The notes under the pieces: generated by a model
The model's input: only the letters and a program-made list of their open reading frames with translations
Database searches by the model: none
What the model was told of the DNA's origin: nothing
Made by a program: the position numbers and the translations under genes
Part shown: positions 32,235-50,248 of the stretch, one piece after another
Layout: each line of letters opens with the position of its first letter
Position numbering within the stretch: position 1 is the stretch's first letter
DNA from: Thermoplasmata archaeon
GTDB lineage: Archaea; Thermoplasmatota; Thermoplasmata; Lutacidiplasmatales; UBA184
Assembly: GCA_022749995.1 (NCBI GenBank)
Contig: JAKIWO010000001.1
Span: forward strand, 90,330-154,329
Direction of reading: 5' to 3'
DNA: 64,000 bases

Positions 32235-33248
32235 TCACCGCGCCATCCGGGACTGGAACTGAGCCGAGAGCCCATCGGTGGTGAGCGCCACCGCCACGCC
32301 GAAGAGGATCAGCACGAGGGCGGGGAAGGCGTACATCCACCAGAGATTGGTCGAGCTGCCGGGCACGAGCCCGTAGCAGACACCCTGGGCGAGCAGGTTC
32401 CCCCACTCCGGGAAGTTGGAGGTGGGCAGCGGGGTGAGCCAGGTGAACGTGTGGGAGGGGCTCGTCCGGTTCCAGCAGCCGAGGAACGGGAAGACGGTGA
32501 GCACGAAGAACACCTGGTAGACGTCGATCGGCACCTGCGCGAACACCGGGTCGAGCGAGTTCGGTAGCACGTGCCGCAGCAGGGTACGCCACCGGCTCGC
32601 CCCGGCCGAGCGCGCGGCCTCGACGTACGGCTCGGCCGTCACCGACTCCGAGCGCGCCCGCACCGGTCGGGCGTAGTACGGCCAGAGCACCGCGGCGAAC
32701 AGGAGGACGAACAGCAGCAGCGTGTCCTGCACCGGCACGAAGTTGTACAAGCCCACGAACAGGATGATCACCAGGAAGAACGGGGGGACGGAGAGCAGCA
32801 GGTCCACCGCGCTCGTCACCACCCAGTCGAGCGCGCCGTGGGCGTAGCCGGCCCAGCTCCCGACGAGCGTGCCGACGGCGGCGGCGAGCAGCAGGATCCC
32901 TCCCACGATGGCGAGGTCCCACGGGATCGACTCGTACAGCGCGCTCGCGAGGTCGACCCCGATCACGTTCATCACCCCGAACGGGTGCGCAGCGCTCGGA
33001 CCCGGTGGCAGCGCGGAGTTCGCCCAGGTGTACGAGATCGCGAGGGTCCCCACGCCCGTGCCGTACTGCACCAAGGCGGCGAGCCCCAGCCCGAGGAACG
33101 TCCCGAGCAGCACCACGCCCGCGAAGAGCGAGGGGTTGCGCACGAGCGCGCCGAGGAGCCGTCGCGCCAGCGCCCGCTCGCCGCGCAGCACGCGGAGGCT
33201 CTCCTCCGACCACGGTTCGGCGAGCGCCGGCTCGACGAGCGCGCTCAT
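32235..33248 (-). CDS. ABC transporter permease, DppC/OppC type (copy 2, tandem paralogue)
   Basis: It shares the motif set of copy 1 (YYARPVRARSESVTAEPYVEAARSAG ...). The ATG at 33248 overlaps the upstream stop (ATGA). Confidence 0.85.
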   Translation of the reverse strand: MSALVEPALAEPWSEESLRVLRGERALARRLLGALVRNPSLFAGVVLLGTFLGLGLAALVQYGTGVGTLAISYTWANSALPPGPSAAHPFGVMNVIGVDLASALYESIPWDLAIVGGILLLAAAVGTLVGSWAGYAHGALDWVVTSAVDLLLSVPPFFLVIILFVGLYNFVPVQDTLLLFVLLFAAVLWPYYARPVRARSESVTAEPYVEAARSAGASRWRTLLRHVLPNSLDPVFAQVPIDVYQVFFVLTVFPFLGCWNRTSPSHTFTWLTPLPTSNFPEWGNLLAQGVCYGLVPGSSTNLWWMYAFPALVLILFGVAVALTTDGLSAQFQSRMAR

Positions 33249-36208
33249 CGTCCCTCGGGCAGGAGCCGCGGGTCGAGGTACCGCGCGACCACGTCGGCGA
33301 GCAGGTTCCCCCCGAGCACGAGCAGGAACAGGAATAGGATCGCCACCTGGTACAGGTTGCCGGCGCTGAACCCGCCGCCGTGCGTGAGGCCGAAACCGCT
33401 CGAGGCGACCTGCGTCATCTCCGTGAGCAGCACATTGCCCACCCCCGGGTCGCTGAACAGCGCCTCGGCGACCGCCTGGGTGCCGATGTACACGGGCAGC
33501 GTGATGGCGAACAGTAGCACGAACTCCGGCAGCGCTCGCCGGCCGGTATGGTGCCACAGCAGTCGTCGCTCCGGCACTCCGCGCGAGCGCGCGGCCACCA
33601 CCGCGAGCGCCCGCGCGTGCTCGGCGGCGGCGTGGCGGGCGTACCGCAGGAAGATGGCGACGTACACGATCGCGATCAGCGTCGCCTGGAACAGCGTCTT
33701 GGCGAACACTACCTCAAAGAATGGCCAGTCGGAATGGTAGGCGCTGTCGAGCAGCGGAAAGCCGGTCGGCAGCGTGTTGCCGCCGATGCCGATCCAGCCC
33801 GGCGCCGAGCCCCCGTGGCTGTCGTACCAGTTCAGGTTCGGCAGGATGCCATACGGCGTGTCGCCGACGGCGTGGATGAAGTAGGTGTACGTGCCGCCGA
33901 GCACGAGCAGGATGACGAGGAAGCTCGGCAGCAGAAGGCCGAGCAGCGAGGCCATCCGGCTCCCGATGTCGAAAGCGCCGTCGGAGCGCCAGCCGGCGAG
34001 GAGCCCGACGGCGTAGCCGAGCGCCGCGGAGATCGCGAGCGCGAAGGCCATCAGTTCGAGGGTGTACGGCAGCCACCACTGGATGTACGTGGTCACCGGC
34101 TCGATGAGGTGACCGTAGGAGGCATACCCCCAGTTCACCGTGACCATCGAGTACGCGAAGCTGAACAGGTTGAGGAAGAAGTTCTGCAGCATCGCTCCCG
34201 TGTCGGCGGTGGAGATGGCGTGCTCGGCGACCTGCGGCAGGAAGCTACCGAAGACGTACAGCAGCGCGAGCAGGCACAGCAGCTGCACCGGCATCAGGCT
34301 CGCGCGCATCAGCACGTACCGGCCGAACCGCGACAGGAGCCGGCCCGACAGACCCCGGTCGCGGCGCCGCCGGGAGACCTCGGCGAGCCAGGCCACGAGT
34401 GCCCCGGCCACCAGCACCAGCAAGAGCAGCGTCACCTCCGTGCTCGCCGGGTAGGGTGTCGTGGACAGGCCGACCGGGCTCAGTTCGATGACCAGCCCGA
34501 GCAGCGGGACACCGCTCACCTGGACGTGCTCGGCGAAGCCCGCGTAGGCCGAGAGCCCGCCCACCGTCAGGTAGTCGGTGCCGTTGGGGGCCCGGAGCGC
34601 AAAGCTCCCGTCGGGAGCCGTGAGCGTCGAGCGCGTGTAGCCGCCGCTGCCGATGATCGATACGAACGCGCCGCCCACGGCCCGCGCGCTCGCCCCATCG
34701 ATCAGACGACCGTCGACCGGGAAGAGCGTGAGGGGCCGGACCACGACGCGCAGCCCGTGGATGGGACCGGTGATCGTGAGCGGGAGGCTCGTGGTCTCGG
34801 TGGCCGGGCCGGCGGCGAGCAGGGTGTAGGTGCCGTTCGGCGCGTAGAGCGTGAAGCTGCCGTCGGCGGCGCTGGTCGTGAGCCGGGAGTTGAGCTCGAG
34901 CGTGATGTTCGGCAGCGGCGTGCCGTTCGGGTCGACGGTGAGCCCCGTGACCGGCCAGCTCGCGAGCGTCGAGGCCGCCGCGAAGTAGTCGACCACTCCG
35001 TCGTCGGTGCCGATGACGAGGCCGCCGGCGATGACCGCCGGAGAGGAGTACACGGTGAGGCCACCGTACTCGTAGCTCCAGCGCAGCGCCCCCGTCTCGG
35101 GGTTGAAGTCGTCGAGCGACTCCTGCCCGTCGATCAGGTAGAGACCCGTCGGCGTGAGGACGGGCGCCGAGAGCAGTGGGTAACCGGCCGAGCCGCCCAC
35201 CGAGCCGTTGGTGACCCAGCGCAGGCTCCCGTTACTCACATTGAGAGAAAAGACCGTTCCACCGTCGGAGATCCAATCGACCGACCGGCCGTCGGAGGCG
35301 GGCGGCGCGTCGATCGACCCGCCCCCGGCGTACCGGTCGCTCGAGAAGCTCCAGCGTACGCTCCCGTTCGATGCATCGAGCGCGGTGAGGTTCCCGTTCG
35401 TCGCTCCGAGGAACAGCGTGGAACCGGCGACCGCCGGACCGGCGTTGAGCCGGCTCTGGGAGAGGTTGGTCGACCAGAGCAGCGAGCCGGCGAGCGTGGC
35501 CGCCCGCAGCCCACCCGTGGTGGTCGCGGCGTAGACGGTCCCGTTCTGCTCGGCCGGGGCGCCGGCGCTCGCGCCGCCGAGCGGCAGGCTCCACCGCACC
35601 GCGCCGCTGCCGTCGTCCAGCGCGAAGAGCTCGCCGGCCTCGGTTGCCGCCAGGAGCTCTCCGCCGATGTCGAGGGTGCCCTGGATAACGGCGGAGCCCA
35701 GGCTCCGGTTCCACAGGGTGCGACCGGTGCTCGCGTTCAGCGCGTACAGTACCCCGTTGTCGCAACCGACGTACAGGCGGCCCCCGGCCAGCGTAGGCGT
35801 GGTCGGGTTCGCCCAGAGGCTCGCGTTCCACAGGACGGTCCCGTTCAGTCGGGAGATCGCCACGACCCTCCCGATGATGTCCGCCACGAAGATCCGGCTC
35901 GCGTTCACGGCCGGGCCGGCGCGGATCGGCAGCGTCGAGGCACCCACCGGTGCCCAGGCCTCGCCGGTCCCGGACGGGCCGGAGACCGGGGTGTAGCCGG
36001 ATCGATTGTCGGAGCCGTGGAAGGTCGCCCAGTCGAACAGGCCGGGAGGCGGGGCGCTGTATCCCGGGCGCGTGAGCTCCGCCGGCGCTACCCCCGCCGG
36101 GTGCGTACCTACTGCGGCCCCGGTAGCGCCCGCCGGAGTCAGCAGCAGAACGAGCAGCAGCCCCCATCCGAGTGCGAGCCCAAGCCCGCCGGCGAGCGGA
36201 TGCCGCAC
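33245..36208 (-). CDS. Fusion protein: signal peptide + PQQ-like beta-propeller + CarboxypepD_reg-like beta-sandwiches + DppB/OppB-type ABC permease
   Basis: The N-terminal approx. 430 aa contain repeated G.vyv....G.l.Alda..G...W units. Next come SFTLYAPNGTYTL / GSFALRAPNGTDYL beta-sandwich-like repeats, a TM segment, and the permease core ending LLADVVARYLDPRL. Confidence 0.8.
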   Translation of the reverse strand: MRHPLAGGLGLALGWGLLLVLLLTPAGATGAAVGTHPAGVAPAELTRPGYSAPPPGLFDWATFHGSDNRSGYTPVSGPSGTGEAWAPVGASTLPIRAGPAVNASRIFVADIIGRVVAISRLNGTVLWNASLWANPTTPTLAGGRLYVGCDNGVLYALNASTGRTLWNRSLGSAVIQGTLDIGGELLAATEAGELFALDDGSGAVRWSLPLGGASAGAPAEQNGTVYAATTTGGLRAATLAGSLLWSTNLSQSRLNAGPAVAGSTLFLGATNGNLTALDASNGSVRWSFSSDRYAGGGSIDAPPASDGRSVDWISDGGTVFSLNVSNGSLRWVTNGSVGGSAGYPLLSAPVLTPTGLYLIDGQESLDDFNPETGALRWSYEYGGLTVYSSPAVIAGGLVIGTDDGVVDYFAAASTLASWPVTGLTVDPNGTPLPNITLELNSRLTTSAADGSFTLYAPNGTYTLLAAGPATETTSLPLTITGPIHGLRVVVRPLTLFPVDGRLIDGASARAVGGAFVSIIGSGGYTRSTLTAPDGSFALRAPNGTDYLTVGGLSAYAGFAEHVQVSGVPLLGLVIELSPVGLSTTPYPASTEVTLLLLVLVAGALVAWLAEVSRRRRDRGLSGRLLSRFGRYVLMRASLMPVQLLCLLALLYVFGSFLPQVAEHAISTADTGAMLQNFFLNLFSFAYSMVTVNWGYASYGHLIEPVTTYIQWWLPYTLELMAFALAISAALGYAVGLLAGWRSDGAFDIGSRMASLLGLLLPSFLVILLVLGGTYTYFIHAVGDTPYGILPNLNWYDSHGGSAPGWIGIGGNTLPTGFPLLDSAYHSDWPFFEVVFAKTLFQATLIAIVYVAIFLRYARHAAAEHARALAVVAARSRGVPERRLLWHHTGRRALPEFVLLFAITLPVYIGTQAVAEALFSDPGVGNVLLTEMTQVASSGFGLTHGGGFSAGNLYQVAILFLFLLVLGGNLLADVVARYLDPRLLPEGR

Positions 36209-36278: not shown

Positions 36279-36301
36279 CGGTCCGGCCGCTCCCCGCTCC
36301 T

Positions 36302-36612
36302 GCTAGGCTAGACCGGGGGGTTGGGCGTCCCCTTTTACACCGAAACCGTCCTCAGCGGGGGTGACAGGCCGGAGCGACGTTCGGGAGAGCGATCCGTCTC
36401 GTAGGGTTCCGTAGAAGCTCTGTTCCATCGGGCCGCGGGCATCGCGACGAGCGCCTGGAGGGGCGCCCTAGCGGTTATCCATCACGGGCACCGGGTTAGG
36501 TCCTGACGGGAGCAGCCTTACCGTGACTCGTCGACGCTGGTGGGGCGACGGGGCCGAGGAGCCCGCGGGAACCACGGACCGCTTTCCCGGACGGCCATCC
36601 GGCTGGCCTAGC
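36302..36612 (+). ncRNA. Signal recognition particle (7S) RNA, archaeal type
   Basis: The 5' GCUAGGCUAGACCGGGGGGUUGGGCGUCCCC... closely matches the remembered M. jannaschii 7S RNA 5' end (GGCUAGGCCGGGGGGUUCGGCGUCCCC). The helix-8 motif is AGGUCCUGACGGGAGCAGCC (compare AGGUCCGGAAGGAAGCAGCC). The 3' CCGGCUGGCCUAGC pairs with the 5' end. There is no ORF, and the ends are good to +/- a few nt. Confidence 0.85.
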
Positions 36613-36629
36613 ACCGATCCCCCACGTCC

Positions 36630-37178: not shown

Positions 37179-37222
37179 ACGGAGGGCGCGGGCCCCCCTG
37201 GACCTCGGCGCTCGCCCCGGGG

Positions 37223-37233
37223 CGTCCCGGGCG
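37223..37233. repeat. Direct repeat CGTCCCGGGCG (left copy), putative target-site duplication
   Basis: A perfect 11-mer repeated at 39749-39759, immediately outside the inverted terminal repeats. Confidence 0.5.
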
Positions 37234-37251
37234 GCTTTGTAGGGGAAACCC
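37234..37251. repeat. Left terminal inverted repeat
   Basis: GCTTTGTAGGGGAAACCC compared with the reverse complement of 39731-39748 (GCTTTGTAGGCTAATCCC). Confidence 0.5.
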
Positions 37252-37290
37252 GGTGGTGTAGGAGAATCGACACGGTTGTAGGAGAAACCC
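37238..37290 (+). repeat. Three direct copies of TGTAGG(G/A)GAA at 19-20-bp spacing (subterminal repeats)
   Basis: TGTAGGGGAAACCC starts at 37238, TGTAGGAGAATCGA at 37257 and TGTAGGAGAAACCC at 37277. Confidence 0.5.
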
Positions 37291-37336
37291 CCGGGGGCTC
37301 CGGTCCTTGGGGGCGGGCTAGATTCTCAGCCAGCCG

Positions 37337-37618
37337 CTAGATTCGCTCGTACTCTCCAGGCTGAACCTGCGTGATCTTTCCCCGGCGAACGCACTTGTCG
37401 AGGACTCGCATGGCGAAGTCACCGGCCACCTTTGTCACATCGCTCGACGGATCCGCCTTTGGTCGGCCCGGTTCGCGAGGTCTGTCAGTGACATAGAAGC
37501 TGAAGACTCGCTCCAGCGATTGCCAAAGTGCCCCGGGCCGAACCTCACTCCCTTTGACGGGACAAGATCCATCGTGTGATTCAGTGCGTAGTTGAAAGGA
37601 TCGGCAGCGTCGGGGCAC
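37337..37618 (-). CDS. Hypothetical small protein, possibly the 3' part of a frameshifted gene; C-terminus wHTH-like
   Basis: It ends VLDKCVRRGKITQVQPGEYERI, a wing-like G..Y motif. The overlapping frame 37435-37644 reads plausibly upstream (MVETMFGVVCPDAADPFNYALNHTMDL). Confidence 0.3.
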   Translation of the reverse strand: MPRRCRSFQLRTESHDGSCPVKGSEVRPGALWQSLERVFSFYVTDRPREPGRPKADPSSDVTKVAGDFAMRVLDKCVRRGKITQVQPGEYERI

Positions 37619-37946
37619 ACCACACCGAACATCGTCTCGACCATCAAGCCTGAATCTCGACAGAGGACAAGAAACCGGCGGCTAGTGAGCCGGCGAACTG
37701 CATTGTGGTCATTTGGGCGTCCCAGCCCCCAGCACAATCCCGGCTGGGCGCCGGGATTGCGTCGCCAGCCGGGCGTCACCGGGTGGCCCCCACATCGCGC
37801 CGAGGGTCGCGGCCTGAAGCCCGCGCTGGCCGATCTGGCTGGCCGGCATGCCCGCGTTCGGTGCGGAGAGGAGACATTGTTGGCCCCCATTCACCAGCGG
37901 GGTCGACGTGGCGTGCGGTCTAGAAACCCCAGCACTTACGTCTCAT

Positions 37947-38642
37947 CTAGCTCTTCTCGAGGTAGCGATTCAGGAATGCCGGTTTGACCACCTTCACTCT
38001 GGGGAATCTGGCTTCGATCTCTGCCTTGTGAGCATACATGGCCCGTTCAAGTATCAGAAAGGCGACTGAAACGCCCTCCTTGTCGCCTATCTCTTGGCAC
38101 GCCCGGAGATGAGCCAAATCGGGCCCATTGACCTCACGTATTTCTGGATTCAGCGGAGTGTAATCGGGCTGGGGCCAGTTCAGGAATTCCACAGCGCTTG
38201 GGCAGCTAGCGAGTTTAGCAGACTCTTTCCAGTGGAGCGCGCTCGCAGCGACGTAGGCAAAGACATTTCTCAGTGGGGCCGTCGGATTGCTCGTCACAGC
38301 CCTTGAAACCTCCTCCTCGATTGCGTCCAAGAAAAGCAACCTTGGGTAGCCCTTCTTCGCACGGACAGCCATAAGGAGCTGTTCAGCCCCCTCAAGTGCC
38401 GCTGGAGAGCCGTTCTCAATGGGAATGGCTGAAGTCACCACCTGCAGATCCTCGTAGACTTGGTCAAGAAGGTTGAGTTTTCGCACCCGCTCGACATCGA
38501 CACTCGGGGGTGCTACTACCTTGACTCCGGCGGCGACTGCGCGCGATAGTGCGCTGGCCGCCATCGCAGATTTGGGATCCTGGGGCCCGAAGCCGATAGC
38601 CAGCAGGATACCGGTGTCAGGAACTAGTATTCCAACACTCAC
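37947..38642 (-). CDS. PIN-like nuclease-fold protein with a large internal insertion
   Basis: GILVPDTGILLAI carries the PIN beta1 Asp (D9). VKVVAPPSVDVERV carries E51. NGPDLAHLRACQ carries D175. FLILERAMY has E199 where PIN domains usually have T.D. The end is VKVVKPAFL. The start overlaps the upstream stop by 4 nt. Confidence 0.55.
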   Translation of the reverse strand: MSVGILVPDTGILLAIGFGPQDPKSAMAASALSRAVAAGVKVVAPPSVDVERVRKLNLLDQVYEDLQVVTSAIPIENGSPAALEGAEQLLMAVRAKKGYPRLLFLDAIEEEVSRAVTSNPTAPLRNVFAYVAASALHWKESAKLASCPSAVEFLNWPQPDYTPLNPEIREVNGPDLAHLRACQEIGDKEGVSVAFLILERAMYAHKAEIEARFPRVKVVKPAFLNRYLEKS

Positions 38643-39646
38643 GCAGGGGCCTCGTTCGCGAGGGCCTCCGCAAGTGCTCGGCCGAATAGGGAAAGGGAGT
38701 CCGGGTCCCGGGTGGCTTCGCTGACTCTCGAGCGACCGAATCGGGAGAGAAGTGCCGCTTGCAATCCCTTTGTGGCTTCCGTGACCTTCGCCTCTACCGG
38801 GCGAAGCTCCACACCTTCGAGCCGTGCTTGTTTCCAGGCCTTGGAGATGTGAAGGTCTTCAATCGACTCGGAGTTCCAGGCGTCTACCGTGAGAACGAGC
38901 CGAGAGTACGCATCCTGCACACGGTCTCCAAAGATGCCCAGCTCAAGGATTGCCTTCCTCGCAGCGCGGCGTTCGTTGTCGAGAGCGCGCCGGGATGTTG
39001 ACTCAACCACGGAATCGAGGGCCTGAGGCAAGACAGCCTTCTCGGCTGCGTCGAACAGCGCCGTCTCCCAGAAGTGCGCAGCCGCGAGAGAGTCTGCGAG
39101 CTTTGTTGGCAGATCGCCGCTAACCAGGCAAACAAAACCCCAGAGAAAGCTGCGGTCTCGTTGCACACGCAGCAGAGCAAACCGTCGACGGAAGGATTCG
39201 ACCTCGATTCTAAACGACCGAACGCCGTCGTCGATTAGTTCCTGACTTCGGCGAGGTCCCTCGGAGTTAGTCCACGACTCAATTATGTTTACAGTCTCGA
39301 TGTCAATCTTCTGCCGAAGCTCTCGGTGGGGGTCCTTGTCGTTGAGCTCCTTCAGCCTGGAGAATACAGATTCGAGATTGAACCGGGGAGGGAGATTCAG
39401 TCCTTGGAGACGCTCCTTCATGAGAAGCGTGTCCTGATTGGCAACAAGCGCTAGCAGCTCTTCGTGCGATTGCCTATTCGGGACAGAAGTCCGCGTCCGC
39501 AGACGGCTTTTCTGGCGGCCCAATGGCAGATCGTGCATGGCCCCAGTCGACCAGGAAGTCGCCATTCCGATGTCACTGAAGTCAGCATTTGGATGGACAG
39601 CCAGCAATCTGCACCCGCACTCAACACACCCCCCACTGCCTATCAA
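38639..39646 (-). CDS. Hypothetical, predicted all-helical protein (up to 335 aa), no recognised domain
   Basis: A long ORF with a TTG start at 39646. Alternative ATG starts lie at 39565 and 39538. It is charged and helical with no motif I can assign. Confidence 0.6.
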   Translation of the reverse strand: MIGSGGCVECGCRLLAVHPNADFSDIGMATSWSTGAMHDLPLGRQKSRLRTRTSVPNRQSHEELLALVANQDTLLMKERLQGLNLPPRFNLESVFSRLKELNDKDPHRELRQKIDIETVNIIESWTNSEGPRRSQELIDDGVRSFRIEVESFRRRFALLRVQRDRSFLWGFVCLVSGDLPTKLADSLAAAHFWETALFDAAEKAVLPQALDSVVESTSRRALDNERRAARKAILELGIFGDRVQDAYSRLVLTVDAWNSESIEDLHISKAWKQARLEGVELRPVEAKVTEATKGLQAALLSRFGRSRVSEATRDPDSLSLFGRALAEALANEAPA

Positions 39647-39730
39647 ATCTGCTTCCAGCGCGGTCTTGTCACTTTGGGACCTATCGGCCCACGTTTGCGC
39701 GACGTAGCACGACGGGAGGGACCCCCTCAG

Positions 39731-39748
39731 GGGATTAGCCTACAAAGC
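39731..39748. repeat. Right terminal inverted repeat
   Basis: GGGATTAGCCTACAAAGC. Confidence 0.5.
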
Positions 39749-39759
39749 CGTCCCGGGCG
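39749..39759. repeat. Direct repeat CGTCCCGGGCG (right copy)
   Basis: Identical to 37223-37233. Confidence 0.5.
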
Positions 39760-39762: not shown

Positions 39763-39770
39763 GGTTTAAG
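39763..39770 (+). promoter_or_regulatory. TATA-like box GGTTTAAG
   Basis: It lies 39 nt upstream of the ATG at 39809. Confidence 0.35.
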
Positions 39771-39771
39771 T

Positions 39772-39790
39772 AAGCGAGATTCGCTTTTTT
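39772..39790 (+). terminator. Hairpin AAGCGA-gat-TCGCTT followed by a T-run
   Basis: A perfect 6-bp stem plus TTTTTT. If the insertion is removed, it would lie about 70 nt downstream of the MOSC stop codon. Confidence 0.35.
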
Positions 39791-39808: not shown

Positions 39809-40111
39809 ATGCATACGTACGTCGACCTCTACTTCTCCCCCAACGGGGAGAACCCGCTCGCCATCGCCGACCGCCTGCGGCGCCAGGCCGGAGTCTCTCT
39901 GATCGTCGGGCCGCACGACATCGCCTTCGACTGGCAGACGGTGGAGGAGTTCCGCACGAAGCTCTCGGCGATCCACGACGCCCTCCAGGGCTCGGACGCC
40001 AGCTACCGGGTCGAATCGGTGGAGGAGAGCCCTGAATTCATCGAACCGACCACCTGGCCGCCGACGATCGTCCGCAGCCAACCCTCCCATCCGGGCTACA
40101 GCCCGGCCTAG
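39809..40111 (+). CDS. Hypothetical small protein
   Basis: A 100-aa ORF with host-like composition and an upstream TATA-like box. No motif was recognised. Confidence 0.5.
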   Translation: MHTYVDLYFSPNGENPLAIADRLRRQAGVSLIVGPHDIAFDWQTVEEFRTKLSAIHDALQGSDASYRVESVEESPEFIEPTTWPPTIVRSQPSHPGYSPA

Positions 40112-40141: not shown

Positions 40142-40633
40142 TTAGCGGGGGCTCCAGCCCTCGCTTTCCAGAGGAATTGCGTCGGTGGCGAGCCGCGCGC
40201 GCACCGCCGGGACGATCGGTTTCTTCTCTCCCTTTTCGTAGTCGTAGCAGACGATCACCGTTCGACCCCGGGCGTAGAGCGAGGTGGAGTCCTCCGGGCG
40301 ATGAAAGCGATACACTAGTGAGAAGCTGGTCCGTCCTATCGGAGCTGCCGGAGCCACCTCCCCTACCATCTCCGTACCATACCCTGCCGGTGCCAGGTAC
40401 CTACAGCTTGCTTCCGCCAGGATGATGTCGAGCTCCCTCGGGTCACTCGCTCCGATGAGCGGCATGTAGTACGCGCAGCGCAGCGTTTCCATGAACGGAA
40501 AGTAGGTGGCATGGTTGAGATGGTTGAGCGCGTCGACGTCGTGATACGTGACCACGAACCGTTGCCGCAGGGGCCACGGATCGGTCCGCGGGGCACTCGG
40601 AGCCGTCGGACTGTCGCTCACGGCGGCGCGCAC
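40142..40633 (-). CDS. Acyl-CoA thioesterase (4HBT/YbgC-like hotdog fold)
   Basis: V.YHDVDALNHLNHATYF.FME.....Y is the typical hotdog thioesterase N-terminal motif. Confidence 0.8.
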   Translation of the reverse strand: MRAAVSDSPTAPSAPRTDPWPLRQRFVVTYHDVDALNHLNHATYFPFMETLRCAYYMPLIGASDPRELDIILAEASCRYLAPAGYGTEMVGEVAPAAPIGRTSFSLVYRFHRPEDSTSLYARGRTVIVCYDYEKGEKKPIVPAVRARLATDAIPLESEGWSPR

Positions 40634-40737: not shown

Positions 40738-42063
40738 GTGGCTGACCCGAGCGCCCCGCCGCGGGAGGAGATGGCTCAGGTGGTCGAGCGGATCCGTTCG
40801 GCCGTCAAGGCCCACTCCGCCCGGTTCGAGCGGTCGATCCCGCTCATCGCGAGCGAGAACCTGTTGAGCCCGTACGCGAAGGAGCTGCTGATCTCCGACT
40901 TCCATTCGAGGTACGCCGAGGGGCTGCCCGGCGAGCGGTACTACGAGGGGAACGAGCAGGTCGACGAGGTGGAGCGAATCTGCCTCACCCTGGCGAAGGA
41001 GCTGTTCCGCTGCTCCTTCGCCGACGTCCGGCCGATCTCCGGCACCGTGGCCAACCTGGCCGTCCTCAAGGCGCTCGCCGCCCCTGCCGATCCCGTGGGC
41101 ACCACGCGCCTCTCCGACGGCGCGCACATCTCGAGCGCCGTCTTCGGCGCCTTCGGGCTGCGTGGCGTCAAACCCGTCTACTACGCCTGGGACGAGGAGC
41201 GGATGACGATCGACGTGCCGAAGACACAGGCGATCCTCCGGGAGGCACGGCCGAAGCTCTGCCTGTTCGGCCTGTCGCTGTTCCTGTTCCCGCTCCCGGT
41301 GCGGGAGCTCGCGCCGACACTCCAGGAGATCGGCGCGACCGGCTGGTACGACGGCGCGCACGTCCTCGGTCTGATCGCCGGCGGAGAGTTCCAGGACCCG
41401 CTGCACGAGGGCTGTTCGGTCCTCTCCGCCTCCACCCACAAGACGCTGCCCGGGCCGCAGCACGGGATCCTCTTGGGGGAGAGCGCCGACCCGGAGCTGT
41501 ACCGCAAGCTCGGCTCCGCCGCCTTCCCCGGCGTCACGAGCAATCACCACCTGCACGCGATGGCGGCGCTCGCGGTGAGCCTCGCCGAGGCCCGCGCGTT
41601 CGGCCGGGCGTACGCCCGGCAGGTGATCGCCAACGCACGTGCGCTGGCCGGGGCGCTCGCCGAACGCGGGTTCGACGTGCTCGGTGAGAAGCTGGGCTAC
41701 ACGGCGAGCCACACGATCGCCGTCCGGGTCGGACGGGAGGGGGGTGGCGCGCCGGTGGCCGCGCGGCTCGCCGAGGCCGGCCTCATCACGAACAAGAACC
41801 TGCTCCCGGGCGACAAGAGCCCGAAGGAACCGCAGGGGGTCCGGCTCGGCACGCCCGAGGTCACGCGCCTCGGGATGACCGAACCGGAAATGGTCCGCAT
41901 CGCCGAGCTGTTCGACGCCCTCCTGCACCGCAACGCTCCGGCGGAACGGATCGCACGGGAGGCCGGCGAGTTGAAGCGGGAGTTCACCCGGTTGCAGTAC
42001 TGCTTCGCCGCCGGCGAGGCGGCGTACCGGTACTACGACCTCGTCGGCCGGCCGGCCGCCTAG
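40738..42063 (+). CDS. glyA: Serine hydroxymethyltransferase
   Basis: LIASENLLSP, RYYEGNE.VDEVE, and STHKTLPGPQHG (PLP Lys). Confidence 0.95.
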   Translation: MADPSAPPREEMAQVVERIRSAVKAHSARFERSIPLIASENLLSPYAKELLISDFHSRYAEGLPGERYYEGNEQVDEVERICLTLAKELFRCSFADVRPISGTVANLAVLKALAAPADPVGTTRLSDGAHISSAVFGAFGLRGVKPVYYAWDEERMTIDVPKTQAILREARPKLCLFGLSLFLFPLPVRELAPTLQEIGATGWYDGAHVLGLIAGGEFQDPLHEGCSVLSASTHKTLPGPQHGILLGESADPELYRKLGSAAFPGVTSNHHLHAMAALAVSLAEARAFGRAYARQVIANARALAGALAERGFDVLGEKLGYTASHTIAVRVGREGGGAPVAARLAEAGLITNKNLLPGDKSPKEPQGVRLGTPEVTRLGMTEPEMVRIAELFDALLHRNAPAERIAREAGELKREFTRLQYCFAAGEAAYRYYDLVGRPAA

Positions 42064-44816
42064 GGCGGCTCTCCGCCTTCGGCGAGCGCGCGGTCGAGCT
42101 CGGCCGCATCGAGTTCCACGCGGGGCAGGGCCGAATCGCCGGTCACCGTCGCACGATAGAGCGTCGTGCCTCCCGGACCCTCGGCGGCGAGGATCGCGCC
42201 CTCGGCCACGAGCGAAGCCAGCCATTCGGCCAGCTCCTCCCGTTCGGGCACCGGTTCCGGCCAGCCGGTGCGCAACTTCTCCAGACTCGTCGGCCCGGCA
42301 ACGGTCAGCTGCTCGAGGATCCGGTCCCTCCCCAGCGCGGTGCGACGCAACTCGGCCTCCGTGACCGCAGAGGCTGGTCCGCCCGGCGGTGGGGTCGTAC
42401 GGCCGCGGCGCACCCACAGTACGCCTCCCCCGAGCGCGATCAGGCCGGCGAGTCCGCCGAGGGCGATGGACACGATCGGCACCTCCCCGACCGGCGCCGC
42501 CGGGACCTCGATCGGGCCGAGCACCAGCTGGCCCGTGCTGCTCCAGACCCGCACCGTCCCCGAACCCGGGACCGGTGCCGAGAAGTTCACCCACGCGAGC
42601 GAACCGTTCGCGGTCGACTCGACCGGCGCCGACAGGTTGGACTCGGTAGCCCCGAACCGGCTCTCGACCCAGAGGGAGCCGGCGCCGCCCGGATTGCCGT
42701 ACTGGTCGGCGAGGCGATACTCGGTGGCGTTGGTGCGGTCGCCGGAGACTACGGTGTGCGCGCCCGTGAGCGCGAGCGAGTACGGGTCGGCGCCGAGCAC
42801 GAGCGCCAGGCCCTCGCCCGTACCCGCCTCGAGCGGGAGGCCGGCGGTCAACGAGACCGTGTACGCTCCGGCGCGCACTCCCTCCAGGCTCAGATTGAGG
42901 TAGCCCGAGTACCACGCGCTCGCGGGGACGGCAAATGCGCCGCCGACCGGCCGAAGGCTGCCGACGATCGCCGAGTCGAGGCTCACGGGTGCCCCCGTCG
43001 GCCCGCTCACCGCGAGCGTGAGTGCGCGGGCAAAGTCGGTCACCCGTTCGCCGTCGGGTGCGTGGGCCACGAACGAGTACGGTACCGGAACACCGGCATA
43101 GCCGGTGCTCGGGAATGGGCCGGCGCCCGAGGCGAGACCAATGGCGGGACCCGCCGTGACGTACAGTTCGATCTCGCTCGCGACCCGGCTGCCGAGCGCG
43201 TCAAGGCAAGTGAGCGTCACCGTGAGTGACCCGGCACCGGCCGGAAGGAAGCTCGCCTCGAGCACGCCCGAGGGGGGCACGAGGCCGCTCGCGAAGGTGC
43301 CGCCGGGCGCGCTCGCGTTCCACCAGTACTGGACCGGAGCCACGCCGCCCAGGAGCTGGCCGCCGAACACGCTCCAGCTCCCCTCGGTCGGGGGACCCCC
43401 GGCGATCGAGATCGAGGGCAGGGTGGGCCGCTCGGCGACCGTGACGATCCCGTCGGCGGAGCCAGAGCGGTTCGCCGCGTCGGCGACACTGGTCTGGAGC
43501 GAGTAGTTGCCAACCATCGGATACGGGAGCGCGAAGGACCAACTGGGCCCGGGCGCATCCGAACAGATCCGCTGCCCCCGCCCGGGCTCGACGCAGGCCG
43601 GGCCGAACGGGGCCGTACCGGTCCCGTTCGCTACGCTCACGGTGAACGGCAGCGGTAGGTCGGTGTAGGTCGCGAGCGGCCGCGGGGCGAGGGCGAGCGC
43701 CAGCGCCGGGTTCACCCGCTCGCTCGGGAGCGACCGGGTCGCATTCGAGTAGCCGTTGCTCACGGTGACGGTGGGGTTGGCGGTCCCGGTGCTGGAATAC
43801 GTCCAACTCGCCGTGCAATGGATCGCCACCTCCTCCTCCGGAGCCCCTACGGCGGTGCAACTCGTGTTCACCGACGCCACGCCGAGCGTCGGTTGAACGC
43901 TCGCCCAGTACGCGTATCCCGGCGCCCCGGCACCGGTCACCGAGAGCGTGACTGGCGCGCCGACGTCGGCCGGCGACGGCAGCAGGACCGCCGAACCGAC
44001 ATTGGTGCTGACGGCCAGGAGCGCCACGTGGAGCGCGCTCGAGAACGGGACTCCCCCGAAGGAGCCGTTGACGTCCACGCCGAGCAACGCCGGACCGGCC
44101 CCTTCCATCGCGGTCGCGGTCACGGTGCGGTTGGAGGCGGTGGGGGAGAGGCTCCATCCGGCCGTCGCGAGCTGCCAGGCGAAGGCGAACAGGACGGGCG
44201 AGGGGGCGCCGTCGGCGGCCAGCGGTTCGGCGGTGAACTCCCCCGGTGCGGCGACGCTGAGCAGCACCGGGCCCGGTGGGTTCACCGTCAGTGTGGTGAA
44301 CGCCTCGGCCACGGCGACACTGGCCCGGCCGCCGCTGACGTTCCCGTGGACGAAGTACCCGGCCGGTGGCGGGCTACTGAATCCGAACCGGATCGCACCG
44401 AACGGGCCGGCGTAGCTGGTGCAGCCGTGCAGGTCGCATCCGCCCGAAGGGAGCGCCACCGCGATCGCGAACGCTCCGGAGCCGTTGGTGCTCGCAGCGG
44501 AGTCGGCCGGCACGCAGCTCACCTGGCGGTTCCCCCCGCCGGAGGGTTGGTAGTCGCTCTCGACCGAGTAGTAGTACACTACCCCGACCCCAGCGACGGT
44601 CGGTACCGGGCTCAGAGTCCCGAACTCGGTGAGCGTCCCCGGGAAGCGGCTCGCGTCGGAGACGCCGCACGGCGAGGCGTGAGGCTGTGGGCCGAGCAGG
44701 ACGGCGGGCACGGCCCCCGCGTCGGATGGGCGACCGGTGGTGGCCGGTGCCAGCGCACCGCTAAGGCATAGGCTGGCGCCCAAGAGGACGAGCGTGAGCG
44801 CCCGGCTCGGTCCCAT
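42060..44816 (-). CDS. Large surface (glyco)protein with a signal peptide, Ig-like repeats, a C-terminal TM anchor and a roughly 115-aa cytoplasmic wHTH-like tail
   Basis: Signal peptide MGPSRALTLVLLGASLCLSGALA. It has many N-x-S/T sites, the TM segment IVSIALGGLAGLIALGGGVLWV, and a tail RILEQLTVAGPTSLEKL...LVAEGAILAAEGPGGTTLYRAT. Confidence 0.7.
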   Translation of the reverse strand: MGPSRALTLVLLGASLCLSGALAPATTGRPSDAGAVPAVLLGPQPHASPCGVSDASRFPGTLTEFGTLSPVPTVAGVGVVYYYSVESDYQPSGGGNRQVSCVPADSAASTNGSGAFAIAVALPSGGCDLHGCTSYAGPFGAIRFGFSSPPPAGYFVHGNVSGGRASVAVAEAFTTLTVNPPGPVLLSVAAPGEFTAEPLAADGAPSPVLFAFAWQLATAGWSLSPTASNRTVTATAMEGAGPALLGVDVNGSFGGVPFSSALHVALLAVSTNVGSAVLLPSPADVGAPVTLSVTGAGAPGYAYWASVQPTLGVASVNTSCTAVGAPEEEVAIHCTASWTYSSTGTANPTVTVSNGYSNATRSLPSERVNPALALALAPRPLATYTDLPLPFTVSVANGTGTAPFGPACVEPGRGQRICSDAPGPSWSFALPYPMVGNYSLQTSVADAANRSGSADGIVTVAERPTLPSISIAGGPPTEGSWSVFGGQLLGGVAPVQYWWNASAPGGTFASGLVPPSGVLEASFLPAGAGSLTVTLTCLDALGSRVASEIELYVTAGPAIGLASGAGPFPSTGYAGVPVPYSFVAHAPDGERVTDFARALTLAVSGPTGAPVSLDSAIVGSLRPVGGAFAVPASAWYSGYLNLSLEGVRAGAYTVSLTAGLPLEAGTGEGLALVLGADPYSLALTGAHTVVSGDRTNATEYRLADQYGNPGGAGSLWVESRFGATESNLSAPVESTANGSLAWVNFSAPVPGSGTVRVWSSTGQLVLGPIEVPAAPVGEVPIVSIALGGLAGLIALGGGVLWVRRGRTTPPPGGPASAVTEAELRRTALGRDRILEQLTVAGPTSLEKLRTGWPEPVPEREELAEWLASLVAEGAILAAEGPGGTTLYRATVTGDSALPRVELDAAELDRALAEGGEPP

Positions 44817-48850: not shown

Positions 48851-49362
48851 TCACACCGGGGCCTGGCGCAGAGTCATCGCCGAGCACTTTCCCTGATCCA
48901 GCATCCGGTGCGGATCGAGGAGCTGCTCCCCAGCGCGTACCGAGCGGCCTCGCCGGGTGGCTTCATGCGGCAGCCCGCGGGCGAGAACCCTAACCATTGC
49001 GAGGCGAACCGGTCGACTCGCCGGTGGGGAATCTCGTCCGTTCGACGTTCCGCACCGCAGGATCGTCCGGGGTACTCTCCAGACCCAGCCTACGGCCCGG
49101 ACCCGGAGCCGTTCCGTGCTCCCGGTCGTGCCCGTCATGACGACGTGGGCGTCGTTCCACCGGTTCGAGAGGTAGGCGACGTGGTGCCGGTGCAGGGGAA
49201 TCTCTCCCCCGACTCGAGCACCGGCTCCCAGCCCCCGACTCGGCGGTTTCGCACGAGCAATCTCTGGGGCAACGGGACGCCATGGAGGAACGGAGCCGAA
49301 AGTGGACCTCGCACGAGGTCGATGGAGTCCTCCATGCCGGCCATGATCGGTCGCGGAACCAA
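48851..49362 (-). pseudogene. Cupin-like gene interrupted by a -1 frameshift in a G5 run (about 49206-49210)
   Basis: Frame A reads MEDSIDLVRGPLSAPFLHGVPLPQRLLVRNRRVGGWEPVLESG. Frame B continues GEIPLHRHHVAYL...RLRVRAVGWVWRVP...N.G. Adding one G joins them, and G/C at third codon positions is high across the junction. Confidence 0.35.
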
Positions 49363-49430
49363 CGGACGGTAGACCGCAGCGTTGGGTCCCGCCGGTACGG
49401 CTAGGGACCCGTTTCACGGAGTCTCCCGGC

Positions 49431-49439
49431 GGTTTATCC
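49431..49439 (+). promoter_or_regulatory. TATA-like box GGTTTATCC
   Basis: It lies 54 nt upstream of the ATG at 49493. An 8-bp-stem hairpin (CTCAGCGG...CCGCTGAG, 49450-49485) lies between the box and the start. Confidence 0.3.
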
Positions 49440-49492
49440 CCCCGCGACACTCAGCGGGTTCTGCTACAGTACGTAACCGCTGAGATCTAACC

Positions 49493-49960
49493 ATGCCCGA
49501 GGTGTTTGTCGATCTGCCGCCGATCCCGGTGCTTCGCCTCCGGGCCGACTGGAACGGTGGAGGGCCGGCGGCGGCCATGGCGAACGTGGAATCCAAGCTA
49601 CCCACCCTCAAGGGGCGCAAGTTCTACGGAACGTTCCGGCCCACCCCGGAGGGCGAGGAGTACTTCGCCTGCGTGGCCCGCGTCGAGGGGGACGACGCGG
49701 CACAGCTGGGGCTGGAAGCTGGAGAGATCCCGGGAGGCTGGTACGCACGGCGAAAAATTCGAGATTGGGAACGGGACATCACCCAGCTGGCAGTCCAGTT
49801 CAAAGACATGGTCCGCGTCCTCGGGGACAACGTGGACCCGGACCGACCTGAGATCGAGTTCTACCGAAGTCAGGCCCAGATGCTGGTGTTCGTGCCCGTG
49901 CGGTCCCCGCCGCGCCCGACACCCCGCGATCCGCGAACGGCACCCCCAGGCCAGGCCTGA
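49493..49960 (+). CDS. GyrI-like small-molecule-binding domain protein
   Basis: R..W.G......A.......L.....K.YG.F......EY.ACV ... G.IPGG.YA....G follows the remembered GyrI-like/SOUL-type pattern. Confidence 0.65.
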   Translation: MPEVFVDLPPIPVLRLRADWNGGGPAAAMANVESKLPTLKGRKFYGTFRPTPEGEEYFACVARVEGDDAAQLGLEAGEIPGGWYARRKIRDWERDITQLAVQFKDMVRVLGDNVDPDRPEIEFYRSQAQMLVFVPVRSPPRPTPRDPRTAPPGQA

Positions 49961-50003
49961 CGCGTGCCCCCCCCGCTGGAATGGAAGCAGCTGTCTAGAC
50001 GGC

Positions 50004-50083: not shown

Positions 50084-50248
50084 ATGAAGGAAAAGTCGAA
50101 CGCTCCTTAATGGGGCCCGTTTCGGATCGGATAGGTCCTCACCTGGACTGCCCTGGGCCGGCCGCTGCATCGGGAAGTTCGATGCCGGTACTCGCGAGCG
50201 TCTCCGCGGCCAAGGAGAGCAGGGCTTGCGCACTCCATTCGAAACACA

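What the first reader, a model, noticed from the sequence alone, without database searches (positions are those of the whole stretch)
37223..39759. 2.5-kb lower-G+C insertion bounded by inverted repeats and an 11-bp direct repeat, with no recognisable transposase
The left junction reads ...GG[CGTCCCGGGCG][GCTTTGTAGGGGAAACCC]... (37223-37251). The right junction reads ...[GGGATTAGCCTACAAAGC][CGTCCCGGGCG]CATGG... (39731-39759). The 18-nt ends are inverted repeats: the first 10 nt are perfect and 15 of 18 match overall. A perfect 11-bp direct repeat flanks them immediately, which is the classical TIR plus target-site-duplication geometry. Hand counts of 60-nt samples give 52-55 % G+C inside (38041-38100, 39241-39300) against 73 % outside (40741-40800). 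All interior ORFs are on the minus strand, and none reads like a transposase or integrase. Removing the element and one repeat copy would put the MOSC stop (37178) about 70 nt upstream of a hairpin plus T6 (39772-39790). That restores a plausible terminator and supports a secondary insertion. There is an alternative reading. Because CCCGGG is itself palindromic, the same bases can be read as a 21-nt imperfect inverted repeat (18/21) with no duplication. Either reading gives a TIR-bounded cargo element mobilised in trans. I do not know of this type being described for archaea carrying this cargo.
Basis: partly seen in the sequence, partly recalled or inferred. Interest (0 to 1): 0.8.

Follow-up and report, generated by a model that had tools for sequence, protein, structure and literature searches.

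The report
Transposase-less cargo transposon in an archaeon
A 2.5-kb piece of foreign DNA in a Thermoplasmata archaeon has the end sequences and target duplication of an IS903-type insertion sequence but carries a previously unannotated two-gene cassette with a PIN-like nuclease instead of a transposase, so it is most likely a hitch-hiking "mobile insertion cassette", a known bacterial kind of element that I could not find described for archaea.

Summary
A perfect 11-bp direct repeat flanks 18-19-nt inverted ends at the stated coordinates. The enclosed 2,517 bp are compositionally foreign: G+C 0.595 against 0.713 ± 0.018, and GC3 0.62-0.65 against 0.87-0.94.

I refine the boundaries to 37233-39749. 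Both ends then read GGCTTTGTAGG…, and the first 8 nt are identical to the IS903 inverted repeat. The duplication becomes 9 bp (GTCCCGGGC), the IS903-group length.

No transposase or integrase is detectable in the element or elsewhere in the window.

The cargo is a conserved, translationally coupled gene pair:
- A is about 322 aa and matches no known domain.
- B is 231 aa and is a PIN-like nuclease. Its AlphaFold2 model has pLDDT 93.5, its acidic residues are invariant, and its top fold hits are PIN-like but weak.

The pair recurs in metagenomic contigs beside MmeI-like restriction enzymes, recombinases and transposases.

The only syntenic relative found, at 62-83 % amino-acid identity, lacks the element.

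Best reading: a non-autonomous cargo transposon with IS5-family (IS903-group-like) ends, i.e. a mobile insertion cassette, carrying a toxin-antitoxin or defence-like module.

Not shown: a second copy, a cognate transposase, or a precise empty site.

Verdict: a new member of a known kind, of moderate interest.

The parts
37224..37232 (.). Left copy of the target-site duplication, GTCCCGGGC (9 bp). Read maximally, the direct repeat is 11 bp (37223-37233, CGTCCCGGGCG).
   Evidence: It is identical to 39750-39758.
37233..37251 (+). Left terminal inverted repeat, GGCTTTGTAGGGGAAACCC.
   Evidence: It matches the right end at 16/19, with the first 11 nt perfect. The first 8 nt equal the IS903 inverted repeat and the end of the IS5-family IS in L298.
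37238..37288 (+). Three direct copies of TGTAGGRGAAWC, at 37238, 37257 and 37277 (spacing 19-20 bp). The first copy lies inside the terminal inverted repeat. They are candidate multiple transposase-binding sites and occur at the left end only.
   Evidence: 3 exact copies here and no other exact copy in the window; 0 of 100 shuffles reached the observed count..
37252..37946 (-). Left arm, 695 bp, with no recognisable gene. It holds ORF fragments 37337-37618 and 37435-37890 (minus strand), two copies of GCTAGATTC (37317, 37336) and the hairpin 37736-37758. It may be decayed coding sequence or regulatory DNA.
   Evidence: No gene is called in the GenBank record. There are no family hits, no Rfam hit, no excess RNA folding and no similarity to IS5 transposases.
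37947..38642 (-). Cargo gene B, 231 aa (GenBank L3K04_00675). It is a PIN-like putative nuclease with a helical insertion.
   Evidence: The family has 29 representatives among 1.84 billion proteins. D9, E51 and D175 are invariant and position 199 is E or D in 24/24 sequences. The AlphaFold2 model has pLDDT 93.5. Top Foldseek hits are HARP, VapC and 'PIN like domain', but weak: E 0.03-0.07, probability 0.77-0.96. PIN/PIN_12 appear weakly in 6 of 24 members.
38639..39607 (-). Cargo gene A, about 322 aa from a TTG start at 39607. GenBank calls only 260 aa (38639-39421). It is the predicted partner of B; its stop overlaps B's start by 4 nt (GTGA). It matches no known domain.
   Evidence: It is homologous to the gene immediately upstream of B homologues: L303, 35 % identity, E 4e-44; L298, E 8e-12. 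A seven-member alignment supports the upstream start. There is no Pfam or PDB hit.
39608..39730 (-). Right arm, upstream of A. It contains a TATA-like TTTGATAG (plus-strand CTATCAAA at 39640-39647), about 32 nt before the TTG start. This is an inferred promoter of the A-B operon.
   Evidence: Read directly from the sequence. The promoter assignment is inference only.
39731..39749 (-). Right terminal inverted repeat. On the minus strand it reads GGCTTTGTAGGCTAATCCC.
39750..39758 (.). Right copy of the target-site duplication, GTCCCGGGC. The 11-bp reading is 39749-39759.
39765..39790 (+). Flanking host DNA, not part of the element. It holds a TATA-like TTTAAGTA (39765-39772) and a hairpin AAGCGA-GAT-TCGCTT followed by a T-run (39771-39790), upstream of the native 100-aa ORF 39809-40111.
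   Evidence: The ORF has a native GC3 of 0.91.

Best explanation
The segment 37233-39749 is a non-autonomous DNA transposon of the 'mobile insertion cassette' kind. It keeps only the two ends that a DDE transposase of the IS5 family (IS903-group type) would recognise, and in place of a transposase gene it carries passenger genes.

Inferred mechanism. A transposase made by a related autonomous IS elsewhere binds the GGCTTTGTAGG… termini. The left end offers three TGTAGGRGAAWC repeats as possible binding sites. The transposase cuts at the ends and joins them to staggered nicks 9 bp apart in the near-palindromic target GTCCCGGGC. This target lay in the intergenic spacer between the MOSC gene and the 100-aa ORF. 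Gap repair then produced the 9-bp duplication.

Cargo. The passenger is a translationally coupled operon: A (about 322 aa, unknown fold) followed by B (a PIN-like nuclease). This operon most likely acts as a toxin-antitoxin or defence-type module and could stabilise the insertion.

What is shown: the end and duplication geometry, the foreign composition, the absence of a transposase, the conservation and pairing of A and B, and the absence of the element from a syntenic relative.

What is inferred: trans-mobilisation, the identity of the transposase family, the promoter, and the toxin-antitoxin or defence function.
For: Geometry:
- The inverted ends match 16/19 and directly abut a perfect 9-bp (maximally 11-bp) direct repeat. 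The chance expectation is 0.015 per window.

Family of the ends:
- The first 8 nt, GGCTTTGT, are identical to both inverted repeats of IS903B, GGCTTTGTTGAATAAATC (1057 bp).
- They are also identical to the end of an IS5-family IS in L298. That boundary is defined by where L298 and L300 diverge. The IS's 435-aa transposase best matches NF033579, the model that IS903B transposase hits at 1.5e-106.
- Related IS5 elements end in GGCGTTGGTG.
- All eight IS903-group ISs captured in Paracoccus make 9-bp duplications (PMC3281130, Table 2).
- GGCTTTGT occurs only at these two places in the window.

Foreign origin:
- G+C has z = -6.5 and tetranucleotide distance has z = +9.4.
- GC3 is 0.62-0.65 against 0.87-0.94 in the neighbouring genes.

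Synteny:
- L016 has the MOSC stop and the thioesterase stop only about 46 bp apart, with no element between them.

No recombinase:
- Pfam, NCBIfam, PADLOC and PHROGs give nothing for any ORF in the element.
- tblastn with two IS5 transposases finds nothing in the window.

Cargo:
- The A-B pair is conserved in seven other distinct loci, mostly with a 4-nt overlap. It lies next to MmeI-like restriction-modification genes, a serine recombinase, DDE transposases and an AbrB/MazE-like gene.
Against: - Only one copy is known. The end pattern found only chance singletons in JGI metagenome and IMG/VR contigs.
- No homologue-bearing locus carries the same ends.
- No IS5-type transposase was found in the 64-kb window, and the rest of the genome could not be searched.
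- The relative L016 is distant and also lacks the adjacent 100-aa ORF, so there is no exact empty site. Exact-protein look-ups found no strain variant.
- An 8-nt identity to IS903 is short. Beyond it the repeats diverge: my own count of the two 18-nt strings gives 13/18.
- The 9-bp and 11-bp duplication readings cannot be told apart from one copy.
- The PIN assignment rests on weak Foldseek E-values (0.03-0.07) and sub-threshold Pfam hits.
- A has no assignable function.
- 695 bp of the element are unexplained.
Confidence: 0.62

Rival explanations
1. Fossil of a once-autonomous transposon. The element originally encoded its own transposase in what is now the 695-bp left arm and carried A-B as passenger genes (a 'transporter IS'). 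The transposase gene has since decayed or been deleted, so the element is now an immobile relic rather than a cassette designed for trans-mobilisation.
For: - The left arm (37252-37946) has no called gene. It does contain overlapping ORF fragments whose codon-position G+C pattern resembles that of the cargo genes: o93 is 0.66/0.51/0.61, A is 0.65/0.46/0.65.
- Only a single copy is known.
- In L298 an IS5-family transposase gene with the same GGCTTTGT end lies 470 bp downstream of an A-B pair.
Against: - The arm shows no residual similarity to IS5 or IS903 transposases or to any family.
- 695 bp is too short for an IS5-family transposase without a large deletion.
- The left end of the L298 IS could not be placed upstream of A-B, and no duplication was found there.
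- Both ends of the window's element and its duplication are still intact.
Confidence: 0.2
2. Site-specific integration. A tyrosine or serine recombinase encoded elsewhere inserted a small circular element by recombination at an 11-bp attachment core, CGTCCCGGGCG. The adjacent inverted sequences would then be recombinase-binding arms rather than transposon ends.
For: - The direct repeat is perfect over 11 bp and nearly palindromic (CCCGGG core), like some recombination cores.
- An A-B homologue in L303 lies next to a serine recombinase gene.
- The left end has repeated motifs like arm-type sites.
Against: - There is no integrase in the element or the surrounding window genes.
- There is no tRNA or other typical target.
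- The inverted repeats abut the direct repeat exactly and start with the IS903-type GGCTTTGT, and 9 bp is the IS903-group duplication length.
- An 11-bp core is short for known archaeal integrases (my own knowledge, not tested).
Confidence: 0.06
3. Chance repeats around a laterally acquired gene pair. The A-B genes arrived by some other route, such as recombination or an old island remnant, and the inverted and direct repeats are coincidental matches around a CCCGGG palindrome in G+C-rich DNA.
For: - Looser versions of the geometry are common in this 71 % G+C window: a 9-bp repeat with a 9/10 inverted repeat gave 5 hits.
- CGTCCCGGGCG alone occurs at least twice in 17 of 100 shuffles.
- No second copy exists.
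- A-B occurs elsewhere without such ends, for example in L317.
Against: - The full geometry is expected 0.015 times per window.
- It coincides with the compositional boundaries to within the resolution of the profile: left flank 37179-37232 has G+C 0.87, the interior 0.57-0.63.
- The A/T-rich end motif is unique in the window.
- The end matches a known IS terminus at its first 8 positions.
- It is repeated three times subterminally.
Confidence: 0.07

Closest known systems
Mobile insertion cassettes (MICs), e.g. MIC231 of Bacillus cereus, as defined by ISfinder/ISsaga
   Same: Both have IS-type terminal inverted repeats and a flanking target duplication. Both lack a transposase and carry passenger genes unrelated to transposition. 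Both are presumed to be mobilised by the transposase of a related IS. The definition is in PMC3129680; MIC231 is cited in PMC2266710.
   Different: MIC231 has IS231 (IS4-family) ends, lives in a Firmicute and was shown experimentally to be trans-mobilised (my own knowledge of Chen et al. 1999). Here the host is a Thermoplasmata archaeon, the ends are IS5/IS903-like, the cargo is a PIN-like two-gene module, the left end has three subterminal repeats, and mobility is not demonstrated.
IS903 and the IS903 group of the IS5 family
   Same: The terminal 8 nt, GGCTTTGT, are identical to both IS903B inverted repeats. The inverted repeat is about 18-19 nt. A 9-bp duplication fits, matching the 9 bp in all eight Paracoccus IS903-group ISs (PMC3281130).
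   Different: There is no DDE transposase, the defining gene. The element is 2.5 kb rather than about 1.05 kb. The repeats diverge after position 8. The host is an archaeon.
Transporter ISs (tIS) and the IS5-family IS beside the A-B pair in metagenomic contig L298
   Same: An IS5-family element ending in GGCTTTGTTAAAG lies 470 bp from a homologous A-B pair. tIS are ISs that carry passenger genes (PMC3129680, PMC7986276).
   Different: In L298 the passenger pair could not be shown to lie inside the IS, because its left end is undefined. The window's element has no transposase at all.
PIN-domain (VapC-like) toxin-antitoxin modules and HARP-type PIN_5 nucleases
   Same: B has a β-α-β core with invariant D9, E51 and D175 and an E or D at position 199. 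Its top fold hits are HARP, a VapBC complex and a 'PIN like domain' protein. The upstream partner gene overlaps B by 4 nt.
   Different: The partner A is about 322 aa with no DNA-binding antitoxin domain, whereas VapB is about 70-90 aa (my own knowledge). B carries a roughly 100-residue four-helix insertion. Neither A nor B reaches any Pfam, NCBIfam or PADLOC threshold.
Archaeal MITEs and casposons
   Same: These are archaeal elements bounded by terminal inverted repeats and target duplications. MITEs, like this element, lack a transposase.
   Different: MITEs are non-coding and usually shorter than 300-500 bp. Casposons encode Cas1 and a polymerase and make roughly 14-15-bp duplications (my own knowledge). 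Neither fits a 2.5-kb, two-gene, Cas1-less element with a 9-bp (maximally 11-bp) duplication.

Membership tests
Mobile insertion cassette (non-autonomous IS derivative with passenger genes) | Terminal inverted repeats of the type used by a known IS family | tested here: met
   The ends match each other at 16/19. The first 8 nt are identical to the IS903B inverted repeats and to the end of the L298 IS5-family IS.
Mobile insertion cassette (non-autonomous IS derivative with passenger genes) | Flanking direct target duplication of the family's length | tested here: met
   A 9-bp GTCCCGGGC lies on both sides, and the repeat is maximally 11 bp. The IS903 group makes 9 bp.
Mobile insertion cassette (non-autonomous IS derivative with passenger genes) | No transposase gene inside; passenger genes unrelated to transposition | tested here: met
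   No transposase, integrase or resolvase hit was found in four HMM libraries or by tblastn. The cargo is the A-B pair.
Mobile insertion cassette (non-autonomous IS derivative with passenger genes) | A cognate autonomous IS with matching ends in the same host | not testable with these tools
   Only the 64-kb window of the source MAG is available, and it holds none.
Mobile insertion cassette (non-autonomous IS derivative with passenger genes) | Evidence of mobility: several copies with different duplications, or a precise empty site | tested here: inconclusive
   No further copy was found in the JGI or IMG/VR scans. The element is absent from syntenic L016, but that genome is distant and also lacks the neighbouring ORF. 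No strain variants were found.
IS5 family, IS903 group (as an insertion sequence) | Encodes a DDE transposase of the NF033579 / PF01609 type | tested here: not met
   The element is therefore not an IS903-group IS; at most it is a derivative that uses such ends.
IS5 family, IS903 group (as an insertion sequence) | Ends beginning GGC, with an inverted repeat of about 15-27 nt and a 9-bp duplication | tested here: met
PIN-domain nucleases (protein B) | PIN-like α/β/α fold | tested here: inconclusive
   The model is confident: pLDDT 93.5, pTM 0.88. The best matches are PIN-like (8ssf, 7vwo, 8kd9, a BFVD 'PIN like domain' protein) but with E 0.03-0.26 and TM 0.28-0.49.
PIN-domain nucleases (protein B) | Conserved acidic active-site residues | tested here: met
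   D9 is present in all 23 sequences that cover the column. E51 and D175 are present in 24/24. Position 199 is E or D in 24/24, and E87 is present in 23/24. Their spatial clustering in the model was not checked.
PIN-domain nucleases (protein B) | Passes the curated Pfam PIN-clan threshold | tested here: not met
   The window protein has no hit. PIN_12 or PIN appears in 6 of 24 family members, at E 0.016-0.05 only.
Type II VapBC toxin-antitoxin | Small upstream antitoxin with a DNA-binding domain | tested here: not met
   The upstream partner A is about 309-329 aa in its homologues and has no recognisable domain.
Casposon | Cas1 integrase (casposase) and a family B polymerase | tested here: not met
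   No such hits were found, and the element holds only two genes.
Integrase-mediated integrative element | Tyrosine or serine recombinase gene, and an attachment site in a tRNA or a conserved gene | tested here: not met
   There is no recombinase and no tRNA in the window.

The most novel reading that the evidence does not exclude
This would be the first documented archaeal mobile insertion cassette. It would be a still-mobilisable, transposase-less element with IS5/IS903-type ends, through which Thermoplasmatota transposases move a previously unrecognised two-gene toxin-antitoxin or defence system (a PIN-like nuclease plus a ~320-aa partner) between genomes. That would show that archaeal DDE transposons do carry passenger genes, a class that a 2019 survey listed among those not detected in archaea (PMC6563490).
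Probability: 0.3. Interest if true: 0.55.

Novelty: new member of a known kind. Interest (0 to 1): 0.4.

Why it matters
Cargo-carrying DNA transposons are a main route for spreading accessory genes in bacteria. A 2019 survey of integrated mobile elements listed them among the element classes not detected in archaea (PMC6563490). A clean archaeal example with IS903-type ends would show that the same trans-mobilised cassette mechanism operates there. It would also give a concrete sequence motif, GGCTTTGTAGG plus the TGTAGGRGAAWC repeats, to search for in Thermoplasmatota genomes.

Separately, the cargo defines a small, entirely unannotated two-gene family. Protein B gives a confident PIN-like model. 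The pair sits repeatedly beside restriction-modification and mobile genes, which makes it a candidate new toxin-antitoxin or defence system.

The finding also corrects a likely N-terminal truncation in the GenBank annotation of gene A (260 aa called, about 322 aa supported).

Tried and rejected
Homology of the cargo:
1. Direct homology for both cargo proteins returned only self hits or nothing. This covered Pfam, PADLOC, NCBIfam, PHROGs, PDB sequence search, the k-mer-indexed protein search and tblastn against plasmids.
2. Only the exhaustive HMMER scan found the B family.
3. Single-sequence AlphaFold2 of B was useless, with pLDDT 39. The prediction worked once the family alignment was supplied.

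Searches for further copies:
4. Scanning JGI metagenome contigs and IMG/VR for GCTTTGTAGGNNAANCCC returned about 240 loci. All were single chance matches: no paired inverted copy, no duplication, no cargo or transposase similarity.
5. Looking for the same ends around A-B homologues (L298, L303, L304, L307, L310-313, L317) found none. A weak GCGCTTTGT/GCGGCTTTAC pair in L317 has no duplication, and I treat it as chance.

The IS in L298:
6. I tried to place its left end so that A-B would be inside it.

Empty site and strain variants:
7. Exact-protein look-ups for MOSC, the 100-aa ORF and A found only the source contig.

The left arm:
8. I tested it as a non-coding RNA (Rfam, folding z-scores), as a transposase remnant and as a homologue of genes next to other A-B pairs. 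All were negative.

Other:
9. A search of viral contigs for B found nothing.
10. I rejected casposon, Tn7-like and integrase models because the defining genes are absent and the duplication length does not fit.

Full report

Yes. The sequence reads …GGGG[CGTCCCGGGCG][GCTTTGTAGGGGAAACCC]… at 37223-37251 and …[GGGATTAGCCTACAAAGC][CGTCCCGGGCG]CATGG… at 39731-39759.

- The 11-mer occurs only at these two places in the window.
- The 18-mer has its only match at up to 3 mismatches at the other junction, inverted. None of 100 shuffles gave two matches.
- The repeat finder lists the pair as the longest inverted repeat of the region.

I tested the joint geometry explicitly. The test was a 9-bp direct repeat directly abutting an inverted repeat of at least 16/19, with the two copies 0.3-10 kb apart. 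This is expected 0.015 times per 64-kb first-order Markov sequence and occurs exactly once in the real window. Weaker versions of the pattern are common in this G+C-rich DNA. Geometry alone would therefore not be conclusive.

**2. Composition**

- The element has G+C 0.595, against 0.713 ± 0.018 for all other windows of equal size (z = -6.5).
- Its tetranucleotide distance from the rest of the window is 9.4 SD above the mean.
- The 38-40 kb bins are the lowest of the whole window.
- Third-position G+C is 0.65 and 0.62 for the two cargo genes. It is 0.87 for MOSC, 0.91 for ORF 39809-40111 and 0.94 for SHMT.

The insert is clearly foreign. The 100-aa ORF to its right is native.

**3. Host and context**

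An archaeal SRP RNA lies at 36301-36613. The window is part of contig JAKIWM010000001.1 of a Thermoplasmata archaeon MAG, GCA_022750025.1.

Among 57 genomes that encode a MOSC homologue, only L016 is syntenic. L016 is a Thermoplasmata MAG from the same study, with 62-83 % amino-acid identity. In L016 the MOSC stop and the thioesterase stop are about 46 bp apart. It lacks the 2.5-kb element, but it also lacks the 100-aa ORF, so it is supportive rather than an exact empty site. Exact-sequence look-ups found no strain variant.

**4. What the ends are**

Both junctions read GGCTTTGT when one more base is included, at 37233-37240 on the plus strand and 39742-39749 on the minus strand. These are the only two occurrences in the window.

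This is the terminus of IS903. I checked that on plasmid Rts1, where IS903B is 1057 bp long. It is bounded by GGCTTTGTTGAATAAATC at both ends, and its transposase matches NCBIfam NF033579 at 1.5e-106.

Independently, a metagenomic contig with a homologue of the cargo (L298) has an IS next to it. The outer boundary of that IS is defined by where two assemblies diverge, and it reads GGCTTTGTTAAAG. Its 435-aa transposase has NF033579 as best hit, at 8.7e-32, which is below the curated cut-off. Plasmid relatives of that transposase are annotated as IS5 family and end in GGCGTTGGTG.

With the element defined as 37233-39749:
- the inverted repeats are 16/19, with the first 11 nt perfect;
- the duplication is the 9-bp GTCCCGGGC, at 37224-37232 and 39750-39758.

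Nine base pairs is the duplication made by all eight IS903-group ISs captured in Paracoccus (PMC3281130, Table 2). The apparent 11 bp would then be 9 bp plus one coincident base on each side. One copy cannot distinguish the two readings.

The left end also carries three direct copies of TGTAGGRGAAWC, 19-20 bp apart. No shuffle reached the observed count. The right end has one copy.

**5. What is inside**

No ORF matches a transposase, integrase or resolvase in Pfam, NCBIfam, PADLOC or PHROGs. tblastn with IS903B and the L298 transposase finds nothing in the window.

*Gene B (37947-38642, minus strand, 231 aa)*
- It had only itself as a hit in the indexed search.
- The exhaustive HMMER scan found 29 representatives, of which the full-length ones are about 230 aa.
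- The alignment shows D9 in all 23 sequences that cover the column. E51 and D175 are in 24/24 and E87 in 23/24. Position 199 is E or D in 24/24.
- With this alignment AlphaFold2 gives pLDDT 93.5.
- The best PDB matches are the PIN-like HARP RNase P proteins, a VapBC complex and Rrp44.
- The best viral match is annotated 'PIN like domain', with probability 0.96.
- All these matches have weak E-values (0.03-0.5). This is consistent with a PIN core interrupted by a four-helix insertion.
- Pfam PIN/PIN_12 appear only sub-threshold, in 6 of 24 members.

*Gene A*
- It is homologous to the gene immediately upstream of B homologues: 35 % identity and E 4e-44 to L303, E 8e-12 to L298.
- A seven-member alignment supports a TTG start at 39607, giving 322 aa. 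The GenBank call is 260 aa.
- A has no Pfam or PDB relative.
- A's stop overlaps B's start by 4 nt, as in most homologues.

*Contexts of the A-B pair elsewhere*
- MmeI-like type IIG restriction-modification genes (L303, L310).
- A serine recombinase (L303).
- DDE transposases (L298, L310).
- An AbrB/MazE-like gene (L298).
- Housekeeping genes of an archaeal-looking contig with CDC48 and MutS/MutL (L317).

None of these loci has the window's ends.

**6. Unexplained part**

The 695-bp left arm (37252-37946) has:
- no called gene and no family hit;
- no Rfam hit;
- no excess RNA folding (z = -0.65 and -0.01);
- no similarity to transposases or to the neighbours of other A-B pairs.

It may be decayed coding sequence. 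This keeps open the rival that the element is a fossil of an autonomous transporter IS.

**7. Search for further copies**

The end pattern returned only chance singletons in JGI metagenomes and IMG/VR. B has no relative in viral contigs or plasmids.

**8. Interpretation**

The best-supported reading is a non-autonomous cargo transposon with IS5-family, IS903-group-like ends. ISfinder calls this kind of element a mobile insertion cassette (definition in PMC3129680). It inserted into the MOSC/ORF 39809 spacer and carries a translationally coupled PIN-like module of the toxin-antitoxin or defence type.

- Shown: the geometry, the foreign composition, the absence of a transposase, the conserved cargo pair, and the absence from a syntenic relative.
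- Inferred: trans-mobilisation, the transposase family, the promoter, and the cargo function.

Rivals, with my confidence in each:
- a decayed autonomous element (0.2);
- integrase-mediated insertion at an 11-bp core (0.06);
- chance repeats around laterally acquired genes (0.07).

**9. Novelty**

The mechanism is that of a known bacterial element type, so I rate this a new member of a known kind. I found no archaeal MIC in the searchable literature. A 2019 survey listed composite transposons carrying passenger genes among the classes of integrated mobile element not detected in archaea (PMC6563490). The key archaeal IS review (Filée et al. 2007) could not be read, so the claim that this is the first archaeal example is unverified.

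I score interest at 0.4. It is a tidy and somewhat unusual example, with an unannotated cargo family worth testing, but it is not a surprise to specialists.

Noticed in passing
window 36301-36613 (+): An archaeal signal recognition particle RNA (Rfam RF01857, 138.5 bits) lies directly upstream of the MOSC gene. It is the only Rfam hit above the gathering score in the window, and it shows that the host is an archaeon.
   Followed up: yes
window 38639-39646 (-): GenBank calls gene A (L3K04_00680) as 260 aa. Alignment with six homologues supports a TTG start at 39607, giving 322 aa. The deposited annotation is therefore probably truncated at the N terminus by about 62 residues.
   Followed up: yes
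window 39809-40111 (+): This 100-aa ORF has native codon bias (GC3 0.91) and no family hit. It is absent from the only syntenic relative (L016), where MOSC and the thioesterase are about 46 bp apart. It is either a lineage-specific gene or was lost in L016.
   Followed up: partly
window 40142-40633 (-): The thioesterase gene has noticeably lower G+C (0.64, GC3 0.76) than its neighbours, even though it is conserved in L016 at 72.5 % amino-acid identity. The low-G+C trough therefore extends about 900 bp beyond the right end of the element.
   Followed up: no
window 37317-37344 and 37736-37758: Inside the unexplained left arm there are two copies of GCTAGATTC, 19 bp apart, and a perfect 9-bp hairpin, AATCCCGGC-TGGGC-GCCGGGATT. 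A GGCTAGATTC 10-mer also occurs about 200 nt downstream of B in L310 and L311, which may be coincidence.
   Followed up: partly
L298 9160-10537 (also L299-L302): An IS5-family IS with a 435-aa transposase ends in GGCTTTGTTAAAG. It sits beside an A-B pair and an AbrB/MazE-like gene. Two assemblies diverge exactly at its outer end (L298 10537, L300 5947), which suggests IS-mediated rearrangement or several insertion sites. Its left end was not identified.
   Followed up: partly
L303 4252-7113 and L310 2490-5786: Large MmeI-like type IIG restriction-modification genes (N6_Mtase, MmeI_Mtase, Eco57I domains) lie within 1.5 kb of the A-B pair in two unrelated contigs. This hints that A-B belongs to defence islands.
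   Followed up: no
window 42801-42819 and 43685-43703: This is the only other pair in the window with a 9-bp direct repeat (GAGCGCCAG) abutting a perfect 10-nt inverted repeat (GCCCTCGCCC). It does not extend to 13/19, lies in G+C-rich DNA and looks like chance.
   Followed up: partly
window 49001-51000 and 57001-59000: These are secondary dips in G+C (0.66-0.68, against about 0.72). They are much weaker than the dip at the element and were not examined.
   Followed up: no
window 33245-36208 (-): A 987-aa protein combines PQQ-like β-propeller repeats with a C-terminal ABC-transporter permease domain (BPD_transp_1). It is followed by two more permease genes. This is an unusual fusion, and it is conserved in L016 at 68 % identity.
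   Followed up: no
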